DNA of 64,000 nucleotides from Ginglymostoma cirratum (taxonomy: Eukaryota). The translations under genes and the position numbers were made by a program. The stretch lies in NCBI GenBank assembly GCA_024137785.1, contig JAHRHZ010000021.1:45416051-45480050 (forward strand), given 5' to 3'. Shown in pieces: positions 1-24,700 of the stretch (positions are counted from its first letter, which is position 1; each line of letters opens with the position of its first letter). A model generated the notes under the pieces. That model had not been told where the DNA came from. It was given only the letters and a program-made list of their open reading frames with translations, and did not search any database.

Positions 1-340
1 AAATCATTATTTCACTCGAAGGGTAATAGAACTCTGAAATTCTATCCCCAAAACATCATGGCTTCAGGGTCAATTGGACCTGTCAAAACTGAAATAGACA
101 GTTCAGTAACGGTATCAAGGGATATGGAGCAAAGAGCAGTAAATAGAATTGAGATGGAAACCAGCCACAACTTAATGGAATGGCAGAGATAACAAGGCGT
201 GGGGCTGGATGAACACAGCAGGCCAAGCAGCATCATAGGAGCAGGAAAGCTTGACATTTCGGGCCTAGACCCTTCATCAGAAATTAATGGAATGGCAGGC
301 TGACTTGAGGAACTAATTGGCCTACTCCTGTTCTAGTTCT
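1..340 (+). mobile_element. CR1 LINE 3' end
   Basis: ttttcactcgaagggtaatagaactctgaaattct...atcaagggatatggagc...ggcctactcctgttct. Similar CR1 tails at ~5690-5930 (-), ~28680-29070 (+), ~54255-54500 (+) and ~61900-62130 (-). Confidence 0.7.
187..283 (-). mobile_element. 97-bp Penelope-terminus-derived insertion with a minimal hammerhead ribozyme core
   Basis: Minus strand starts tttCTGATGAaGGGtctaggCCCGAAAtgtc. Flanked by an exact 15-bp direct repeat TTAATGGAATGGCAG (172-186, 284-298). It interrupts a CR1 3' tail. Confidence 0.75.
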
Positions 341-2678
341 CCTCTCCCTTTCAATTAAGAGTTTATTAACACAAAGAATCTTTTTGTCTTATATTTTTCA
401 CCACTGCAGAAGTTCAGCTAGTTTTATTTAACATCTCAAAGTCCAAAACAGGCACACACAACCCATTTCCATTTGATTCAATTCGCCTTTCAGGTATTTT
501 CCCCAACAAATGTGGATTTGATGCTTACTGATGCTTCCTGCCAATTTTGTTGTTATGTTTTGTTGATATCTAGTTTTCTTTTTGTGGAACAAGACACATG
601 TAGCTTTAGCCTTCCTTCCATCCATTCATGTGCGTATTTTGATCCTTTGCTGGATCTAATCCCATCAATCCATTTCCACTTTTTGGCTCTTTCTTTCTGA
701 CTTTCTTTTCTAATTATTGCTCTGACACTATCTTCAAGCATTATGCCTCCCTTCACTTCTCCAATCTCTATTCTCTAACCTCCCAATTCCCTATTTCAAC
801 CCTTCAATATTTCTTCACAAGCCAGCTCTCTTGCCATTATTCCAGGCTTGGCTCTCTGTTGGATAAACCTGTGGCTTTCCTTTGTGCCTTTCTTGGCATT
901 CTCCATGTTAGCAGCAATCCCAATGACTTCATCTCACTCTGTTATTGGCCGACTTATCCAATGCATTTGCTGGGGACTAACCACGTCAATCTACTTCCTG
1001 GCCAACTCACTCCTCCCAGAGCAGTGCTTCAACCGTCACCTCGCCTCTTGGCATCCCCATCCTGATGGACTGTTCACGTGTACACAAGCCCTCACCATCC
1101 ATGAAGGTACTGTGGATAATTGCATTACCACAGATTTAACAGAAACCAGGCTGAAGGGTGATAGCACTTTCCCTCTTAATGAAACCTCCACCCCAACTCC
1201 ATCTTCCATCACTTGCCCTGTCAAGATGGTGATGTGCTGCTCATCATCTGTCTCATCTTAGCCTGACCCCCTCCTCCTGTGACACTTGCTTTCCTTTCCA
1301 TTTCAGCTTGTTCCACCCCTCTCACTACTAAGAAATTACTTGCTTTTGAATTGAGAAATTGAATAGGAAGCTTTTAACAATCCTTAACAGCAACTGGAAG
1401 CATTATACTTAATGAATGATCATGTTTGGTGAGGTGGCTTCTGTTAAATGTTTCAATGGATGTTACAGTCTACTCATTTCTGGATAATAAAATTGCACAC
1501 AGCAGCCTTCATACAAACATTTCTGTTGCAGGCTTTAATGAAATATGTGTGGATGATGCAGCAGCGCAGTGAGCACCAAAAAAAAAATCACAAGTGAGTT
1601 ATTACATTTACAACACATACTTAATAAAAAAAAACAGACTAACACTTTCGTGTGTGGGATCCTGTCAAAAGAGGTGATTATTGCAGGGTTGTTAAAATGA
1701 ATATTCTTTAATGGCAGAGACTGAAAGAAAGCTATAAGACAAGGGTGATGAGAGGAGAATGTTGAGAAAAATGGGTAGATTGTAACATCCAATGGAGAAT
1801 TTAGCATAAGTTATCTTGTCAAACCTGATTACTCATGCATACAACGCTATCAGTGGTTATTGAAGATTGTTAAGAGCTTTCAATTCAATCTCTACATTCA
1901 AAAGCAAGTACTTTCTATGTAACTCAAAGATTTAAACAATCCACAAAAATCACTTTCCATTTATTTGCATCTTGCACAACCTCAGGATGTCTCAAAAATG
2001 CTTCGCCGTCAATTAAAACTGTGAGTATGGTCATAGTTGTAATGTAAGAAACACGGCTGCTGAATTTGCATAAGTAAGCTGCCAAAACAATGTTGAGATC
2101 ATCAGCAGGTAATCTGTTTTGGTGAAGTTGCTTGAGAAATAAATAATTGGTCTGAACAAACATTGCTATAACAATATTTTCTGCATTAGGACAACATCAC
2201 AAAGTGAACAGTTTCACTCCAAATTCATTTTCTGGAATACTCCTCTTTCCCTTGCATGCTTCAGAATCAATTGCAGAAAGTTACAGCCAGCTAACTGATT
2301 AATCAGCAAAACATGACTTCAGCTATTCGCAAGTGGAGCTCTGCTACAGCTTACCTACTCACTCACGAACCTCACCATCAGTTGTTCATTCCTCTCCACA
2401 TCGGTTTAACTTCAGTGCAGCAAAATATCCCAAGGAGCATTATCAATAAGGAGCATTATCAATAAGAATGTTGACAATGAGCCACAAAAGAAGGCAGAAG
2501 ACCTGAGGGTTTCTTAAAGATATGTGTTTTAAGGAGCATCTCAAAAGAGGAAAGCAAGAGACATAGAGATGGAAGGGTGAAAGGAAATCCAGAGTATGGG
2601 GCCAAGGTAGCTGAGTGGGTGATGCAATCAAAATTGAGGACGCACAAGATTTGGGAACTGGAGAAGCATACAGTTCTT

Positions 2679-3301
2679 GAGAGAGATAAAAGGTACTGCA
2701 GATGCTGGAGAATCCGAGATAACAAGCATGGGGCTGGATGAACACAGCAGGTCAAGCAGCATCATAGGAGCAGGAAAACTTGACGTTTCGGGCCTAAACC
2801 GAAGGGTTTAGGCCCGAANNNNNNNNNNNNNNNNNNNNNNNNNNNNNNNNNNNNNNNNNNNNNNNNNNNNNNNNNNNNNNNNNNNNNNNNNNNNNNNNNN
2901 NNNNNNNNNNNNNNNNNNNNNNNNNNNNNNNNNNNNNNNNNNNNNNNNNNNNNNNNNNNNNNNNNNNNNNNNNNNNNNNNNNNNNNNNNNNNNNNNNNNN
3001 NNNNNNNNNNNNNNNNNNNNNNNNNNNNNNNNNNNNNNNNNNNNNNNNNNNNNNNNNNNNNNNNNNNNNNNNNNNNNNNNNNNNNNNNNNNNNNNNNNNN
3101 NNNNNNNNNNNNNNNNNNNNNNNNNNNNNNNNNNNNNNNNNNNNNNNNNNNNNNNNNNNNNNNNNNNNNNNNNNNNNNNNNNNNNNNNNNNNNNNNNNNN
3201 NNNNNNNNNNNNNNNNNNGGTTTAGGCCCGAAACGTCAAGTTTTCCTGCTCCTATGATGCTGCTTGACCTGCTGTGTTCATCCAGCCCCATGCTTGTTAT
3301 C
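2679..3301. mobile_element. Fold-back (inverted) Penelope-terminus element spanning the assembly gap
   Basis: 2718-2800 is the exact reverse complement of 3219-3301. 15-bp TSD AAGCATACAGTTCTT at 2664-2678 and 3302-3316. Confidence 0.75.
2819..3218. other. Assembly gap (400 N)
   Basis: Run of N. Confidence 1.
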
Positions 3302-5940
3302 AAGCATACAGTTCTTACCTCCTTACCATGAGCTAGCGGAGACTACTAAGTTAAGAAGGGGCAATGCCATGCAGGGTTTTGAAAATTGATTTTAAAACTG
3401 AGATCAAACGAGGAATCAATTTAGATGACCAACCACAAGGGTGACAAGTGAACAGAACTTGGTGCAAGTTAAGATATAGTGATCACAGGTTTAAAATGAT
3501 CACAAATTTATCAAGGGTAGAAGGGGCAGCAGGAGATGAGCTGAGCCAGAGTCAAGATCAGAGGATGGTACAGAGGTGAAACTAGGTTGTCAGGGTGATG
3601 GAACAGATTTATAGTCTGAAGCTCATCTCAGGGGCAAACAAGATTGCAAATTTCAGAAAGAGCCAGGGAACTAAATGGGAGCAGTGGTCAAGGGGAGGGA
3701 GGTGTTGGAGAGCTTGCTGTATGCCAGTTAATAACAGTGATCAGATTTCAGAAAGGAATTTATGTTAAGTGCTTTGAAGCATCGCTTAGAGACATGATAA
3801 AATGTTACATAAATGCAACCATTTAATCTCAGCATATTGCTTCAATTATAGTGTGCTTGAATAAACAAAATGGACTCAATACAATTCATCAATTAGATAA
3901 TTCACATGAATGATAGACACATAAATGAGCACGTTGCTCTTTATGTGACACTACCCCATCTTTAACTCTTTGTTTAAAAGAATTTATGATGACAGGGTAT
4001 ATGCATGTGTTAATTGCAATAAATTTGGGAAATCAAAGTGATGCAGTCAATTTACGTCCCATTCAAGAATTGTCAATTTACCTGAAAAGCTTCAATCAAA
4101 ATCTAATTCAAAACACTATTGGAAAAATCAGTACTAGCACAGACAGTAACAGAAAATCTATCGTGCATCACTTCATACACTGTGTTATAGCTCGTAATAG
4201 TTATTTCCAAAAAAATAGACATGATCCTTGTCTCCTCTCTAGTTCTTTTTTTATCTAAAGTGGTGTCCTCTGGTTAGTGACCCTCCTGATATTGGAAACG
4301 GTTTCTCCCAAACTAATCTATCAATGTTCTATTCCTCAAACTTTTGAGAATATCCATCAAATCTCATTGTTGAAAGCCTGTTCCTTCCTTGAGTGTCCAG
4401 CACTGTAAAGAATGGACGCTTATTTGTTCGAAACAAATGGTGCACCGGGAATAACCACATCATTTATTCTGAATTGAGAATTAACTTCCGTGTAGTAGCA
4501 TGTTATTTCTACTGATGTTCCACAACAACAGTATAAACTGGACTTGCCTGCTACAATCTGTATTTATTTGTTTCATGGGGCTGGAAGTAATGTAATTTGC
4601 CATGAGTGAGCGGGGAGCAGTGGATGAAAGTATAAGCTGTGGACCCTAGCTCACTACTGAAATGAACGGAGAGTCTCTTCACTAGTATCTGGGAATTGAA
4701 TGTGACCTAAAATTTCTGAAGCCAAAACACCTTTCAGCTGTGCTGTCATTCATTCTGGATTGGATGACATTTTCATGTTGGGTCCATTCATTACAGAGCT
4801 GGAGGTTTTCATTATACAAAGGATTCTGTGCATTTTGTGGGTCACATAAATATTTAACGGTTTTCGATAAAACACTTCTTAATTGAATAAAGCATTTTTT
4901 CTTTATTAATAATCTCTTTCTGTTCTCACTTTTCTTGGATCCATTTGGCAATTCATTCTTAGTATATGGGATTTGTTAACAAAGGCAGTATTTGTTTCTC
5001 ATCCTAGTGTCCTTGAGAAGGAGGTTTTGTGTCATCTTAGTGAGCCACTGTTGCCAGTCAGTGAAGGTGCCCGCACAGCGTGTTTGGGCAAAGAGATGCA
5101 GGACCTTGACCCAATGGGCCATGGACAATCATTTGCCTGGGTCAGACAGAAGTGCTCACAGTGCCCTTTAAATGGCCAATTGACAGCTCCATATAACTTA
5201 ATATTTCAGTCACCTAAACGTTTGGGTGGTTTTGTTATCAAATGGTTCACCTCTTCACTTTCAGAAGGAAAACACCACTTACTAGAGTGAAATAGGCCCT
5301 TCATCTTGTGATTATTCTTGACTTGGGGGTATGTGCAGAAAAGTACAGCAGCACAAAAATCCACTCGAAAATGCATTCAGTGTCATGAGCTACAGCCATT
5401 TAGATTTTCTAACAGCTTGTACATTCTCTAGGCTAGAAGAACACATTAATAACTTGACACCTTTCAATTCACAGAACAGTCACACTTCTGTCTCCTCAGA
5501 ATGCAGGTGTAACATGCGAAAGGAAGCATCCCACTCTCATTCTGATGTGACTGAGTAATAGTTCCATATCATTGGGAAACTATTGAATTGAGAAGCATCT
5601 CTCCCCTAATCTGCTTCTACCCTGCTTCCTTAAGCCCCTCAGCGACATCTACAATGTAGTGTACCTACAGTATAAACATATGTATACAGAGCAAAAATAG
5701 ACCATTCAAATCCTCATGCCTGTTCCACGATTTAATAAGATTGTCACTGATTGATTGTGGCCTCTACATTTCCACCTATCCCTGATACTCTTTGACACTC
5801 ATGTTAGTCAAGAAACAATATAACTCTATTTTTAAAATATTGAATGATTCTGCCTCCACTATTCTCTGAGGAAGAGTGCTACAAAGATTCACAATTTTGA
5901 GGATTAAAAATTCTCCTCACCTCTATCATAATTCAAAGAA

Positions 5941-15560: not shown

Positions 15561-16760
15561 GTTTATGTTCTACTCGACCCTCTTTCTCTACACTGTATTT
15601 AAGCCCATCAGCAGAACGTGTATCTCTCTCCTCAATAACATTGGGTTCCCTCTTAAACACATCTATTTTATTATCCTGAACAACATTCGAAACAGGCTTT
15701 AAACATTTTCCTCCTGTTTGTTTTAATGAAGTTTATTTATATTGCGCTTATGTTCATGTATCATTGTTTTGGCTTCATCTGCCAGCGCACACATCTGTTC
15801 CTGGTATCCTATCAAATCCCCTCTTCACTTTTAAACCTTTTCCAGCCCATCCACAGGTTTCTGGAGAAAATAGCCACCCCCTGTTCAGTCTTTCTTGATA
15901 GTTGCAACCCCTCAAATTATTTATTAATTTCTTTTTCATCTTCTCCAGTGTGTTTTGTCAGAAGGGGACCAGAAAGAGGCACAAGTTTGGTCTAACCAAA
16001 CTTCTGTACAGGTTTAACACAACTTCACTGCTTTTCAAATACATGTCTTTAGAAATGACCAGCAATGCTTTGCATTTCTAATAGAGTTGTTCACTTGAAC
16101 TTATCCTATTTAAACCTCCTCTTATTTCCAAGGAATATATTATCTTTTCACAGCAAGTTGCACCATGTCACATTTAGTGTCAATACTATGCAGAACTGGA
16201 GGAACACAGCAAGTCAGGGAGCATCAGGAAAGTCGACGTTTCGGGCTTACACCTTTCATCCTTCAGATTTTGACTCCAACATCTGCAGTTCTTGCTATCT
16301 CCATATCACAATTAGTTCTGTTGAAATTCCCTTGTCATTTAGACACCAACTATTCGACAGGTTTTCTTTTCTTTCCCCAACCTTTCTCATTATTAACTAT
16401 TCCCCACCTTCCAAATTGCTTTTAAATCCAAATTTTAAATCCCAGCATCTGGACTGTTTACCTAACTGGTGAACAATAGTTCTCCCAGCCTTGATATCAT
16501 TTGTACATCCATCCATCTGTTTTAACTATCTTCAACACCTACTCTTTGTGTTTGGTTTTGTAGCTAGCTTGGCACTTGCCCTCTGATTTCACATGCTCTT
16601 ACCTTTATTAGAATTGACTACATGGTACCTTACTGAAGGCTTTTTGAAAACCCAGGTGCATTACATTTGCTACATTTAACTGTGTTCATTTCTATTCCTT
16701 CTTCAAAGAACTCAGTGAGGCTGGAGTGCAAACTTCTCTTTTGGAATCTATGCTACTATT
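15515..16760 (-). mobile_element. Old CR1 LINE fragment
   Basis: gcactgaaacaggccgttcggcccaac tail and ttactgaaggctttttgaaaacccaggtg (antisense LxFQKAF motif). Confidence 0.55.
16186..16301. mobile_element. Degenerate Penelope-terminus fragment with a hammerhead remnant
   Basis: gaacacagcaagtcagggagcatcaggaaagtcgacgtttcgggcttacacc, followed by inverted tail sequence ccaacatctgcagttcttgctatctc. Confidence 0.55.
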
Positions 16761-19340: not shown

Positions 19341-21342
19341 AATTTTACACAATTTTGAAGTTGCCACAACACTCACTAAACCAAACATGAAAGATCTTGT
19401 CACAGGAGATTGTGAATTCAAAACCAACTCCAGGCTGCCAGCACCCAAACTTGACACACCAGTGCAGCAATGACAGCATATTGAGTGGTGGATGAGTTCT
19501 ACCTTCTGAATCAGGTGCTCAGGGTATCAATGCATGCTACACTAAAATTGAATCTGACTGTTTGCAAAGAGAGGAGACACAACAAAGATTGATCCTGACC
19601 ACTTCTGATGTCTACACTTGCTGCTAGGTGTCATTGGTAAACAATTAAGAGAGGGAACCATGGATTATATCCAGCCCTGCCCTCACCAATTAGCCTCGGT
19701 GCATGACATTGAAGTGACAATTTGTCAAACTAGTTGATAATTAACTTAGCACAGATAAGAAATTGTCTATATGCACAGCAAGGTATTACATTTGAAACAC
19801 ATCAGTCTGTTTAGTTATATATTCTGGATTTTAACCATGAGCATGTGTGCAAGTTTGCATACATTGAGCAATAAGCCAGACATACCGAGCTATTCCACAC
19901 CAGGCAGCTAATTTACAAAAGAGATAAAGAAGGTCTAGAATTAGAAAATCAAAGTGTATATGTATTTCTCACACCATAGATCAATTCTCTGTTTAGACAT
20001 AAAAATAGTTCTTATTACAAATTCTATTCTATTCTAAAATCTGCTGCAAACCTTAAGAAAGTGGGGTTCATATTCAAATAATGATCACAACACAGCCTTC
20101 TGAGAAGCCATTTATGATGAGACATCAGACCATTAGAAAGGAAAAATGACACGTTTGCTGTGACCATGTTCACTCTTACCCTTCAGACATAGAAGCCTGC
20201 TACAATACTTGGCATGGCCAACATGACACTCCAGCCCCACACAATGCGGCCAACTCTGGATGGGCAAAGCATTGCCTTGCTAGAATTTCCCATATCCCCC
20301 AAGATCAAATTCAGCTAAATGTTACACACCTCTTTCAAATTCAGAGTATTGCAGCCTATAATTCTGCTAGTTTTTAGCTACATTACCAAAATAAGGCTGT
20401 TCACAACACTCATGTTAGCAAAGATCCATTTTAGAAAAAGATACATAGTGAATTCAATGCAGATGGTGAAACACAATTTATCTTTAGGAAGGTTAGATTG
20501 GCATTTAAAGTACTATTACCTACAAAATGGTGTACAGAATAGACATGCCTTAACTTTGCTGGCATGTTTACTATGTACCTACCATATAAATACCCTAATT
20601 AAATATGACAAACATTCCTAATCTGTTAGGTCCCCTGACCAAACAACAGTTAAGATCTAAAGCAACACACATGGTGTGTACCAATAAGAACTAAGCTCCT
20701 TGTTTTTTTTATGTTAACCTTAAAGCAACACTGTACAATTCACTGGATTGACACCTCTGGCTGATCATGAGCTATACAATGAGAGATCCACTGGAGATTA
20801 ATTAAGACAACAGTAAGACACACAGACACAGATCCATACGGCCCAGATTTTGCAGTCATCTGCAAACAAACTACACCAGCTGTCCATTATACTTATGTGT
20901 GTTCATAGGCAATGGGTTTTTGAACTGGAACTTATTAAGAATCCAAAACAATTATGTCTCCCTCTACAGGGGTTATACAAAGCTGCGTGAACAGAGCAAA
21001 CTAAGGTCCATCACCTTTATGAATCAAAACATCCTTACTGATCCAGGAAGCATCAAAATCAGACCAGGAAGTAAGTCAGAACATTTCATTCAACATTGAA
21101 TCACGTACAGAACATGAAAGAAGACGAGAAAGGAAGATGGATTAGGAAAAAGAGATAAAAGAAATATTTTAAACGTTATATAAAATTGTAATTATTTTTA
21201 AAATTTACAAAAATAATTAGACATGAAGGAATTAAACTCCATTTTGCACTGCCAGAGAGTCTGTTTGGAAGTAATTAAGATTTAACTCACTATTAAAAAT
21301 TCACTCATATTGGAGCAACCAAGCCACACCTTCTGCTGGCAT

Positions 21343-21461
21343 GAGATAGTAGGAACTGCAGATGCTGGAGAATCTGAGATAACAAGGTGTAGAGCTGGAT
21401 GAACACAGCAGGCCATGCAGAATCATAGGAGCAGGAAAGGTGACGTTTCGGGCCTAGACCC
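21343..21461 (-). mobile_element. Penelope-terminus fragment, truncated inside hammerhead stem II
   Basis: gagatagtaggaactgcagatgctggagaatctgagataacaagg...tgacgtttcgggcctagaccc; same family as 187-283. Confidence 0.7.
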
Positions 21462-21587
21462 TAGACCAACATTGTCCTTCAAGTTGGGCCTTCCTAAGCC
21501 AGACTGAGGAGCAAATCATTGCTGAAGGGATGCAGCAGGGAAACTTGTGAGGAGAGGAGCTGATAAAGCTACACTCCCTTCAGATAT

Positions 21588-21748
21588 AACACAGTGTTAG
21601 AGCTGGAGATTTGAATAGATAATCTGAAGAAGGGTCTCTACCTGAAACATCAGCTTTCCTGCTCCTCTGATGCTGCTTGGCCTGCTGTGTTCATCCAGTT
21701 CTACCCTGTGCTATCTCAGATTCTCCAGCATCAGCCGTTCCTACTATA
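21588..21748 (+). mobile_element. Penelope-terminus insertion with hammerhead core and 13-bp TSD
   Basis: CTGAAGAagggtctctacctGAAAcatcagctttcctgctcc... TSD TCCCTTCAGATAT at 21575-21587 and 21749-21761. Confidence 0.7.
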
Positions 21749-24700
21749 TCCCTTCAGATATCTCCAGTTCAGGTTACTCCTCGTAAAATGACCATGCATA
21801 CAGTGTTCAGGTCAGTTTTTTTTGCCATTTCTAAGGTTATTTTAAAAACTATTTTGATGGTTAAGATACTTAATTTTTGTTATGAGTTTGTGATGATGTG
21901 AGAGTAGGTGAACATTATTAGGAGGGAGTTGGGGCTATTGATATTTGTCAGGGGCATGTAAACTGTTTTTTGGATTCTTCCTAGTCAGCTGTACTGGTAG
22001 TCACTTTCATGTGCCTAAGGTTAACAGCTGGTGAAGAACAGGTAAATATTTGGGTAAGAATATTGTACCCAGCCCAAGCCACGGCACTAAGTTCAACATC
22101 AGAGAAACTCTTAGATGTGTGTGGGCAACATAATTCTACCTTTTGTAAGTATAAACTTCTTGAGTAGCGATTGTGCATGTACTTGGGTCAGTTCTTCCTT
22201 GATCCACAATAACAGTAAAGTTCCCAATATTCACACTGTTGTCCTAGACGATTTGTGCTTTTGTTATTAAAGGATGTTGAAGGAACAAGGCAACTCAGAC
22301 AGCAATGTTCTGATTTCCAAATTTAACTGCAGAAGTTGCTGTCCAATTTAATAACAGTGAACACTGCTGACTTCGCTATTGTTTCTACAACAGAATCTAT
22401 GTTATTAGGTGACACTGTGCACTCTACTCACTATCTGAGACAATGGACCATCCAAGTAATATAATGACTGGTGGTCTGACCGTTACCTTTCATGATTAGA
22501 TGCAGAAAGCAATGATTGGAATATTCAAGGCATGTTGTTCACAGTTGTTGATTAATATCCATTTATGGAAATCATAGAACAATCTAATTTAGCCAGAATT
22601 TAGTATCCATAACAACACTGGTAAAGGGATGAGCTGTGCTTGGTCTTTCTTCAAGTTACCGCTTTGACATGTGATCAATTTTCCAAGAACTGAAAATTTC
22701 CATCCACTCCAAGGATGTAGAAATAAAAAGGTAGGATCTTGGGGAATTCCAGAGGGAACAATATGTGGAGGGGGAAGAGAGTGATGCTACTAATGGATAG
22801 TTAAACATGGAACCCGCTAAGGGCTATCTCATTGAGTTAGAGTGGTGAAGAGGCATCGGAGGAGAATGATATGTTCATCTACATAGAAAGCTGCAAAGGG
22901 TTCAAGGATGATGAAGAGGGTTAGCGCACCCAGACACAGACGTTATAATTTCTAACTTTGACAGAGAATTTTTGGTATTTTGATGGAGGTAGATTCATGA
23001 TTGGAGTGATTCAAATATGAAGATAAAATGACAGAAATGGGTTTGAGAAGATGACAACAAGTTAAAAGAAAGGAAGTTGGTTTGAGTGTTGCAAGAATAG
23101 TAGAGTTGGGGATGAGTTTTTAAGGAGGTTGTAACGATGGTGATTTTGAAAAGTACCTGGGGGTAGAGAACCACTTACAATGTCAGAAACCTGAGATCCA
23201 TTTGGAATGTAGGTGGTCAGTAGTACAGTTGGAAATGAATCAAGATAGCAAGCATAGAGTTGCATGGAATATGATAAGGTGGGAGAAGGCAGTTCAATGA
23301 TCCCTGTCCTCACAGTTTGCCAAGCTGATCTCTTTGACTTGTCAAGACCTGTTACTCCTCAATTTCTCTCTCTTCAAGTGTTTTTGAATTCCTTGCAGGA
23401 AGCACGAGCAACTGGTTCATAAATTATAAGGTCTCTGACATAGGGTTAAAAGCTACAGCTTACAACAAATAGTGAATGAAAATAAGTTGTTTTCTTCAGT
23501 CTTTAGACTTTTTTAACCAGAGAGATAAGTAAACACATTCCTGTCTGGAGGTCTAATGGCTCTGACCATCTCATTCATATCCACAAGTTGTCCAGTTACC
23601 TTGCAGCCAATCACGTAGTTGCTAGCAGGCAGAGGGCCTTTGCCATTGGTCACCAACCTGCAGACCAGTCAGCTACTTGTTACTGGCTCTATCTCATTCT
23701 GTACACACTCCCTGGTGCCAGTTCGTCTGTAACTAAATTTCCCTCACTGGTTGAACGAATAACAAGTGTAACTTACAATAATTGCTGGCAGCTTGTTTTT
23801 AAAAAGGTTTTTTTTTCAAACAGTCTTTTACCCACTTCAGTCCATAATCAAAAATACAGGAAAGGAAACAGATACAGTCTTCACAGGGAGAGACAGCAAG
23901 TAAGTCTAAAATTTAGTAATGAGAAAGCTCACTGTGTTCCTTTTACTGCTGGTTGGCAGTGACAACAGAGGAAGAAAGGAGATTAAAGGACAGTAATGAT
24001 GTAGGATTGAAGCCAATACCTTTTTTGCTGTGCTTAACACAGGAAGAAGTGAGTGGCTTGGCAGAACAGAAAAATCTGATAATGTTGGGAAGGGCCTGAG
24101 ATCTGCTGATGTATGACTGATCCAGAGTTTGGTAGATATTCTGAAGTCTGTGCCCTTGAAGGTGTTAAAAACTCTGTATGCCAATGCTTGAGACAGATTC
24201 CCAGTATTCCAAGGCAGTCGCTGGTTGACCAGGCAGAACCTGGATGGGAAGACCCGTCACTGATAACTGGGATTCTTCACTCGCACAATGGTCCTGAAGT
24301 CCCAGTCATAACAGATAGAGTAGTACTAGTTCAGAAGCTTCTGATCCTCTCTGGTTCTCTTCATGCCATTGCCTAGTGAACCTCCAGCAATCTACCTGAA
24401 TTCACTTGTGACTCTCCAAGGCTTTCTGCTACCAACCTGCTGAAGTCTAACCTGAAATAAATAATTTGTGTAGAGTCCATATTAGAAAAGGAAAAAATAA
24501 TTAAACGTTGTTATATGTTTACACGTCAGGCAGGAAGCTAGTCTGAGCTCTACACTTATTGTATTTGCTTCTTTAAATGTATTGGGGGTTTTTTTTTGCA
24601 GCTTTGAATCTCAGACACAATGACAAATCTCATGTTGGACTTTGCCTGCATTGTTTTGTAACCTTTCCTTTGAGTTTAGCACGTTTGTAATTCACATGAT

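What the first reader, a model, noticed from the sequence alone, without database searches (positions are those of the whole stretch)
172..298. 97-bp mobile unit that is essentially a minimal hammerhead ribozyme plus tail, with a perfect 15-bp TSD
Seen: the insertion 187-283 sits between exact repeats TTAATGGAATGGCAG. On the minus strand it begins 3 nt before CUGAUGA-A-GGG(ucuagg)CCC-GAAA-uGUC, which is the hammerhead catalytic core with a 3-bp stem II, an extra A after A9 and almost no stem III. Known: Penelope-like element termini carry minimal type I hammerheads thought to act as dimers, and non-autonomous ribozyme retroelements (retrozymes) exist in plants and animals. Inference: sharks may host a very short, non-autonomous, Penelope-mobilised ribozyme-bearing element family, or insertions that preferentially truncate at the ribozyme.
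Basis: partly seen in the sequence, partly recalled or inferred. Interest (0 to 1): 0.7.

Follow-up and report, generated by a model that had tools for sequence, protein, structure and literature searches.

The report
Leader-end stub of Penelope retroelement
This 97-base insertion is real, but it is one of thousands of stubs of a known kind of jumping gene (a Penelope-like retroelement carrying a small hammerhead motif), not a mobile unit of its own; such stubs pile up at one start point that is likely the capped first letter of the element's RNA.

Summary
Observation confirmed: 187-283 lies between exact 15-bp repeats and carries a minimal type I hammerhead motif on the minus strand. It is not an independent family. 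It is 95/97 identical to the pseudo-LTR of an abundant 3.5-kb Penelope-like element (RT plus GIY-YIG, Neptune-type linker motif); its 24-base core occurs 28,843 times in the genome, and short and long copies share haplotypes. Ends are not random: 5' ends fall about 33 times more often 0-8 bases before CUGAUGA than further upstream, 32 bases from the predicted cleavage site. That point lies 31 bases behind a TATA-like box (TATAAA at 29 in a second family), carries a G excess, and is where ORF-bearing copies also begin. It is likely the capped transcript start, so the stub is likely a run-off copy from the first internal priming site. In 46 of 47 head-to-head insertions one arm ends at each of the two priming sites. 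RNA reads showed neither start nor cleavage; self-cleavage is untested. Minimal hammerheads, tails and inverted repeats of these elements are published, and this scan noted the same reading earlier on other DNA.

The parts
172..186 (.). Target-site duplication, copy at the element's 3' (tail) end
   Evidence: Exact 15-base repeat; single site in paralogous empty repeats L109 and L115
187..283 (-). 97-base stub of a Penelope-like element: from -3 (or -4) before CUGAUGA to the first tail end (+93)
   Evidence: 95 of 97 identical to UTR-linked copies L005, L020, L088; family 3' ends cluster near +90-99 and +125-139
281..284 (-). First four letters AUUU: 5' strand of hammerhead stem I and inferred transcript start (A at 284 is shared with the duplication)
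   Evidence: Pile-up of 5' ends; TATA-like box 31 bases upstream in long copies; start is inferred
274..280 (-). Hammerhead core CUGAUGA
   Evidence: Sequence; position 7 varies T/A/G/C between families
261..273 (-). Extra A after A9 (273) and stem II, 4 bp GGGU/GCCC with CUAG loop
253..260 (-). GAAA-UG-UC: core plus palindromic zero-loop stem III (family CG, here UG at 256-255); predicted cut between 253 and 252
   Evidence: cut site from hammerhead numbering (established knowledge), not tested
249..252 (-). 3' strand of stem I (AAGC)
187..248 (-). Remainder of the element's 5' untranslated leader up to the first internal priming site; in long copies it runs on through a second site about 37 bases later to the ORF start near +167 to +172
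   Evidence: L162, L309
284..298 (.). Target-site duplication, copy at the element's 5' end

Best explanation
The 97-mer is a dead stub of an abundant autonomous Penelope-like retroelement, likely made when the element's reverse transcriptase primed at the first of two internal sites near the front of its own RNA and ran off the likely capped 5' end after about 97 bases. Shown: the stub matches the pseudo-LTR of a 3,522-bp unit with an RT and GIY-YIG ORF; family 3' ends fall at two sites; 5' ends pile up at -2 to -5; ORF-bearing copies begin at the same place; head-to-head insertions pair one short with one long arm. Inferred: the element's endonuclease cuts both strands about 15 bases apart; each 3' end primes at one of the two sites; the point at -4 is the transcript start, so the hammerhead begins at the first letter of the mRNA and is copied uncleaved; when only one cDNA is joined in, a solo 97-mer (or about 134-mer) results, and when both are, a head-to-head palindrome results. 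Ribozyme cleavage did not make this copy's ends.
For: Link to ORF: RVT_1 E 9e-8; GIY-YIG E 2e-5 and 3e-4; L309, hammerheads 3,522 bases apart, decayed ORF between. End statistics, 101 tail-anchored copies, 21 cut off by N or locus edge: 29 ends in 428 bases of exposure at 0 to -8 against 26 in 12,625 further upstream, p 1e-28; none at -9 to -50. Genome counts: 11,572 of 28,843 cores keep 16 exact upstream bases; 5,851 keep TTT but differ at both -8 and -12 (21-base core). Of 30 copies that run from tail into the ORF start, 11 show the ribozyme: 6 begin at -2 to -5, 3 continue into the 3' UTR, 2 begin inside it (read by eye). Promoter geometry: TATTTATT 31 bases before the A at -4; in a second family 8 UTR-linked copies have TATAAA 29 bases before the same A in an initiator-like CCATCAGTT (consensus recalled). 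G before that A, where the element has C: 2,089 against 1,838 for A plus T, about 28% expected; an extra G marks capped full-length L1 insertions (PMC11702581, passage). Pairing: 46 of 47 TSD-flanked head-to-head insertions have one short and one long arm, none two alike; arms share a haplotype in 20 of 30 against 8.9 on shuffling, maximum 17. Two internal priming sites, cuts on both strands and use of uncleaved RNA were shown in vitro for an anole element (PMC11167929).
Against: No direct evidence for the transcript start: poly(A) reads of run X23 lie equally on both strands, follow genomic copy number and show no place where many molecules begin or end. The G excess is confounded: of 41 G junctions 12 are re-copies of the element's own CTG and many others overlap a G of the inverted arm; only 6 have the G at the end of the target duplication (by eye), and in the second family the inverted arm holds GAGTT natively. 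The window copy has no extra G. 10 of 30 arm pairs differ at a diagnostic site. The in vitro work is on a Poseidon element and saw no strand difference in start sites; this element has the Neptune/Nematis linker motif. The end sample comes almost wholly from one contig and from young copies. For this single copy, priming in the 3' pseudo-LTR with truncation at the same place cannot be excluded.
Confidence: 0.7

Rival explanations
1. The stub is the 3' pseudo-LTR end of an ordinary 5'-truncated copy, and the pile-up is a sequence effect: the enzyme stalls on leaving the hammerhead fold or on entering the C-rich tract, and the ATTT offers microhomology with AT-rich targets.
For: Microhomology and extra T's are common at these junctions; the anole enzyme prefers ATT sites (PMC11167929); the tract upstream of -4 is CCCCTCCCCC; RNA reads show no start.
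Against: The longer AT run at -27 to -35 collects no ends (0 ends in 1,280 bases of exposure); a stall does not explain the TATA box at the right distance in two families, the G excess or ORF-bearing copies starting there.
Confidence: 0.2
2. The 97-mer is a non-autonomous element with its own masters (SINE-like or retrozyme-like), transcribed separately and moved in trans by the Penelope protein.
For: Solo TSD-flanked copies recur: 30 in the loci held, 20 short and 10 long (an enriched sample); about 8 of 101 unselected copies are short solos (by eye). Pseudo-LTR-derived retrozymes exist in vertebrates (bioRxiv 10.64898/2026.07.22.740005).
Against: Short and UTR-linked copies share the common haplotypes and no short-only lineage appears; 5' junctions differ from copy to copy; the stub lacks the TATA-like box that lies upstream in long copies; no tandem arrays of the unit were seen; published retrozymes are tandem or LTR-bounded.
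Confidence: 0.07
3. Ribozyme self-cleavage defines the unit's ends.
For: Apparent 5' ends at the predicted cut (+28) number 966 against 263 at a control position (+21); 27 of 30 inspected were true junctions, so a minority of family copies may come from cleaved RNA.
Against: This copy holds the whole ribozyme and starts 31-32 bases before the cut. About 8 of the 30 junctions at +28 join at the self-complementary AAGCTT, the control pattern loses copies to a CpG, and the corrected excess is about twofold. No end pile-up in RNA reads.
Confidence: 0.03

Closest known systems
Minimal hammerheads in pseudo-LTRs of metazoan PLEs (Cervera and De la Pena 2014, PMC4209133; read parts 1-2 of 4, supplements not read)
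   Same: Type I core, nucleotide between 9 and 10.1, G10.1-C11.1 pair, palindromic 15.2-16.2, short stem I; most motifs dispersed as single copies tied to truncated PLEs; pairs on opposite strands 100-700 bases apart
   Different: Cartilaginous fish are not named in the parts read; at least 28,843 copies here against about 4,000 and 9,000 in coelacanth and Xenopus; the paper does not map copy ends
PAc, Poseidon element of Anolis carolinensis (Frangieh et al. 2024, PMC11167929; read parts 1-2 of 4; supplementary text searched without hits, figures not seen)
   Same: Two internal priming sites bounding the 'tail', near the RNA's front; both strands cut; uncleaved RNA is the template; no reads ending at the cut site
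   Different: Here the ORF starts about 170 bases after the ribozyme rather than in stem II; linker motif is Neptune-type; the genome shows strict one-site-per-strand pairing and a fixed 5' run-off point, which the parts read do not report
EN+ PLE insertions with inverted pseudo-LTR, one-sided tail and TSD (Arkhipova et al. 2013, PMC3846280; Craig et al. 2021, PMC8557442; passages only)
   Same: [quoted passage not shown]
   Different: Those papers favour self-priming on an antisense template or endonuclease resolution; the end data here fit two primings on sense RNA
Non-LTR retrozymes of animals (bioRxiv 10.64898/2026.07.22.740005, read parts 1-3 of 5, supplements closed; PMC7229834 seen only in a search listing)
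   Same: Non-coding, hammerhead-bearing, derived from PLE pseudo-LTRs; monomers occur
   Different: Defined as tandem repeats with their own lineage; this unit is a dispersed solo by-product sharing haplotypes with the coding element
L1 full-length insertions with cap-derived G, and L1 twin priming (PMC11702581, passages)
   Same: Extra G at the RNA's 5' end; two primings at one cut site with a discrete TSD
   Different: In L1 the second primer copies a different part of the RNA; here both arms copy the same leader from two fixed sites

Membership tests
EN+ Penelope-like element | Single ORF with RT and C-terminal GIY-YIG endonuclease | tested here: met
   seen in linked copies, no intact ORF among the loci examined
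EN+ Penelope-like element | CCHH motif with two cysteines between GIY and YIG | tested here: met
   VVYCIRCTRCGFLYIG and two later histidines in L046, L057; definition from PMC8557442
EN+ Penelope-like element | Pseudo-LTRs, inverted copies, 30-40-base tail, TSD | tested here: met
   L309; 47 head-to-head insertions, TSD mostly 14-16
Penelope/Poseidon clade | No CX2-5CxxC motif in the RT-EN linker | tested here: not met
   CNRRKCYTC (CX4CxxC) is present; my early label 'Poseidon' in the notes was wrong
Neptune (or Nematis) clade | CX2-5CxxC linker motif | tested here: met
Neptune (or Nematis) clade | RT phylogeny with named members | not tested
   No reference sequences were on hand
Minimal type I hammerhead | Core CUGANGA, GAAA, NUH with stems I and II, extra base after 9, palindromic 15.2-16.2 | tested here: met
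   88.6% of cells paired over 22 copies of about five families, 46-48% when slid by one column; this copy has U15.2-G16.2
Minimal type I hammerhead | Compensatory changes beyond chance | tested here: inconclusive
   Stem I differs between families (AGUU/AACU, AGUC/GACU, CAGCU/AGCUG) but 52 of 500 shuffles reach the score; core invariance was imposed by my search pattern
Minimal type I hammerhead | Match to a curated covariance model | tested here: not met
   No Rfam hammerhead hit at E<=10; the models may not cover zero-loop stem III (inference)
Minimal type I hammerhead | Self-cleavage as a dimer | not testable with these tools
   The monomer is predicted to misfold; weak genomic hint at +28
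Non-LTR retrozyme | Tandem units each with a hammerhead | tested here: not met
   Solo between TSDs; no arrays of the 97-mer in the loci examined
Non-LTR retrozyme | Own lineage distinct from the coding element | tested here: not met
   Shared haplotypes at five usable sites; the sixth was biased by my patterns
Non-LTR retrozyme | Abundant circular or monomer-length RNA | tested here: inconclusive
   No end pile-ups in two runs; a poly(A) library would miss circles

The most novel reading that the evidence does not exclude
These stubs are the Penelope counterpart of strong-stop DNA: the mRNA begins with its cap on the first base of the hammerhead, a protein dimer primes both cut strands on one RNA at two sites 37 bases apart, and each cDNA runs to the cap, where it is joined in, re-copies the first bases in telomerase-like repeats, or jumps back into the RNA. 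This would explain the one-sided tail, the inverted pseudo-LTR and the partial tandems in one scheme, and give the ribozyme the job of removing the capped 28-base leader.
Probability: 0.4. Interest if true: 0.62.

Novelty: new member of a known kind. Interest (0 to 1): 0.36.

Why it matters
As an object it is ordinary: a fossil stub of a known retroelement class. Its use is as a record of a transposition cycle that the field calls undefined. Tens of thousands of copies give exact priming sites, a candidate transcript start, and a near-strict rule (one short arm, one long arm) that any model must explain and that can be tested in the existing in vitro system. It also warns annotators that short hammerhead-bearing repeats with clean TSDs need not be independent SINE-like families.

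Tried and rejected
A DNA search of the genome with the 97-mer returned nothing because common words are skipped; patterns were used instead. Rfam found no hammerhead. Folding of the stub is no more stable than shuffles (z 0.09). Covariation did not beat shuffles. A PDB sequence search with the RT piece gave only two weak unrelated hits. No intact ORF was found among 20 candidate long loci; L309 is full length but decayed. Poseidon assignment rejected on the linker motif. A MITE reading of the inverted pairs was rejected: arms are unequal, centres vary and the sequence is the PLE leader. The +13 variant looked depleted in short copies but my patterns selected against it. 67 of 114 candidate arm pairs lacked a duplication of 9 or more bases and were left out of the pairing count; 6 of 36 pairs lacked a readable arm. 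Lunse et al. 2017 is not held and is known here only from citing passages; it, and the supplements of PMC4209133 and the 2026 preprint, may list shark motifs. Eight searches listed no paper on a cap-defined run-off point or strict arm pairing in PLEs; subscription papers and Repbase were not searchable.

Full report
Observation. The repeats at 172-186 and 284-298 are identical and not extendable, and enclose 97 bases. The insert sits in an older repeat; two paralogues of that repeat carry the site once and no insert, so the duplication is real. On the minus strand the insert reads TTT, then CUGAUGA (280-274), an extra A, a 4-bp stem II, GAAA, UG, UC and a short stem I partner. Positions below count from the C of CUGAUGA as 0. 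The family has CG at +24/+25, giving the palindromic GAAACGUC of minimal PLE hammerheads (PMC4209133). Rfam does not recognise it.

What it belongs to. The 24-base core has 28,843 exact matches in the 4.36-Gb genome and a 28-base tail motif 39,512, with 0 for reversed controls. Many copies continue upstream through a C-rich UTR into an ORF with RVT_1 and GIY-YIG matches, the CCHH cysteines and a CX4CxxC linker motif, which PMC8557442 gives for Neptune and Nematis and not for Penelope/Poseidon. Downstream, the same sequence runs on to the ORF's ATG about 170 bases after the core. L309 is a decayed full-length copy with hammerheads 3,522 bases apart. The window stub differs by 2 of 97 bases from UTR-linked copies. 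Short and UTR-linked copies share the common haplotypes, and 30 TSD-flanked solo copies have varied 5' junctions. This argues against a separate non-autonomous lineage.

Where copies end. 3' ends cluster at about +90-99 and +125-139, the two ends of the PLE 'tail', which in the anole element are the two internal priming sites (PMC11167929). For 5' ends I took 101 copies anchored on the tail motif (100 from the first contig); 21 were cut off by N or a locus edge. There were 29 ends in 428 bases of exposure between 0 and -8, against 26 in 12,625 bases further upstream (68 against 2 per 1,000; p 1e-28), and none between -9 and -50 although a longer AT run lies there. Genome counts agree: 11,572 cores keep 16 exact upstream bases, while 5,851 keep TTT and differ at both -8 and -12.

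What the point at -4 is. It is not the cleavage site, which is at +28. Four lines suggest the transcript start. (1) Of 30 copies that run from the tail into the ORF start, 11 show the ribozyme; 6 begin at -2 to -5, 3 continue into the UTR and 2 begin inside it (by eye). (2) TATTTATT lies 31 bases before the A at -4; a second, older family has TATAAA 29 bases before the equivalent A in 8 UTR-linked copies; TATA and initiator spacing are recalled knowledge. (3) Where the element has C before that A, junctions show G 2,089 times against 1,838 for A and T together; about 28% G is expected. In the second family the first 100 of 645 listed were 48 G, 30 A, 22 T (by eye). An extra G marks capped full-length L1 insertions (PMC11702581). 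(4) Twelve of 41 G junctions repeat the first letters of the unit, one of them five times (L189), and several copies run from -4 into the ORF and then restart at -4, as expected if the enzyme reaches a template end and re-primes. Against this: the G excess is partly explained by re-copying and by overlap with the inverted arm; only 6 of 41 have the G at the end of the duplication, although none of 21 A/T junctions showed a directly abutting duplication; the window copy has no extra G; and RNA reads show no start. The start is inferred, not shown.

Head-to-head insertions. Of 114 candidate arm pairs, 47 had a duplication of 9 or more bases (mostly 14-16); 46 pair a short arm with a long arm, one pairs a short arm with a longer one, and none has two alike. 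Arms share a four-site haplotype in 20 of 30 readable pairs against 8.9 on shuffling. This fits both cut strands priming, one at each site, possibly on one RNA; the one-RNA step is inference. The solo 97-mer is then the case in which only the short cDNA was kept. [quoted passage not shown] 2013 read the palindromes as self-priming on antisense RNA.

Ribozyme activity. The fold is kept across about five families (88.6% of cells paired) but covariation does not beat shuffles, and the monomer is predicted to misfold. Apparent 5' ends at +28 number 966 against 263 at a control position; after removing non-junctions and joins at the self-complementary AAGCTT, and allowing for the control's CpG, about twofold remains (my arithmetic). 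This is a weak hint that some templates were cleaved. It does not concern this copy, which holds the whole motif.

Novelty. Minimal hammerheads in PLE ends, dispersed single motifs, tails, inverted repeats and internal priming are in print. My eight literature searches listed no paper with the fixed run-off point or the strict arm pairing, but subscription papers, Repbase, Lunse et al. 2017 and several supplements were out of reach. The scan's notes, read after I had formed this view, hold 153 findings on such stubs in at least 15 genomes, one in this genome suggesting the RNA start and others proposing capped-leader copies; these are unchecked AI notes and not independent support. Verdict: real, a new member of a known kind, of moderate interest for what its ends say about PLE transposition.

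Noticed in passing
window 2664-3316: Head-to-head insertion of the same family with a 15-bp duplication (2664-2678 and 3302-3316), long arm left, short arm right, identical haplotype in both arms, centre unread.
   Followed up: partly
window 21340-21760 and 16190-16300: Older or rearranged stubs of related families, including two arms around unique sequence and a copy with a different stem I.
   Followed up: no
window about 120-345: The target is an older dispersed repeat with paralogues in L109 and L115; from memory it resembles the 3' end of a CR1-type LINE, not tested.
   Followed up: partly
L189 (junction before the core): Five head-to-tail repeats of the unit's first six letters at the 5' junction, like telomerase repeat addition at a template boundary.
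   Followed up: partly
L301, L302, L303, L306, L307, L308, L315, L320: Short direct tandems: start, tail, 100-400 bases of ORF, then a restart at about -4; suggests a jump from the RNA's 5' end to a site shortly inside the ORF.
   Followed up: partly
L050:1699-1744, L149:352-394, L071:4044-4090, L093:866-909: At least four other hammerhead-bearing PLE-like families in this genome, all with an initiator-like YCANTY on the 5' strand of stem I.
   Followed up: partly
many loci, e.g. L002, L095, L107: Runs of exactly 100 or 400 N often sit at the centre of head-to-head insertions; probably assembly gaps at palindromes, though withheld stretches also read N.
   Followed up: no
L162 and L309, ORF N-terminal part: A variable-length Ala/Thr/Pro/Asp repeat lies between the N-terminal domain and the RT.
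   Followed up: no
leader of long copies, +3 to +135: Two short upstream reading frames (about 14 and 29 codons) precede the main ATG; read from the sequence.
   Followed up: no
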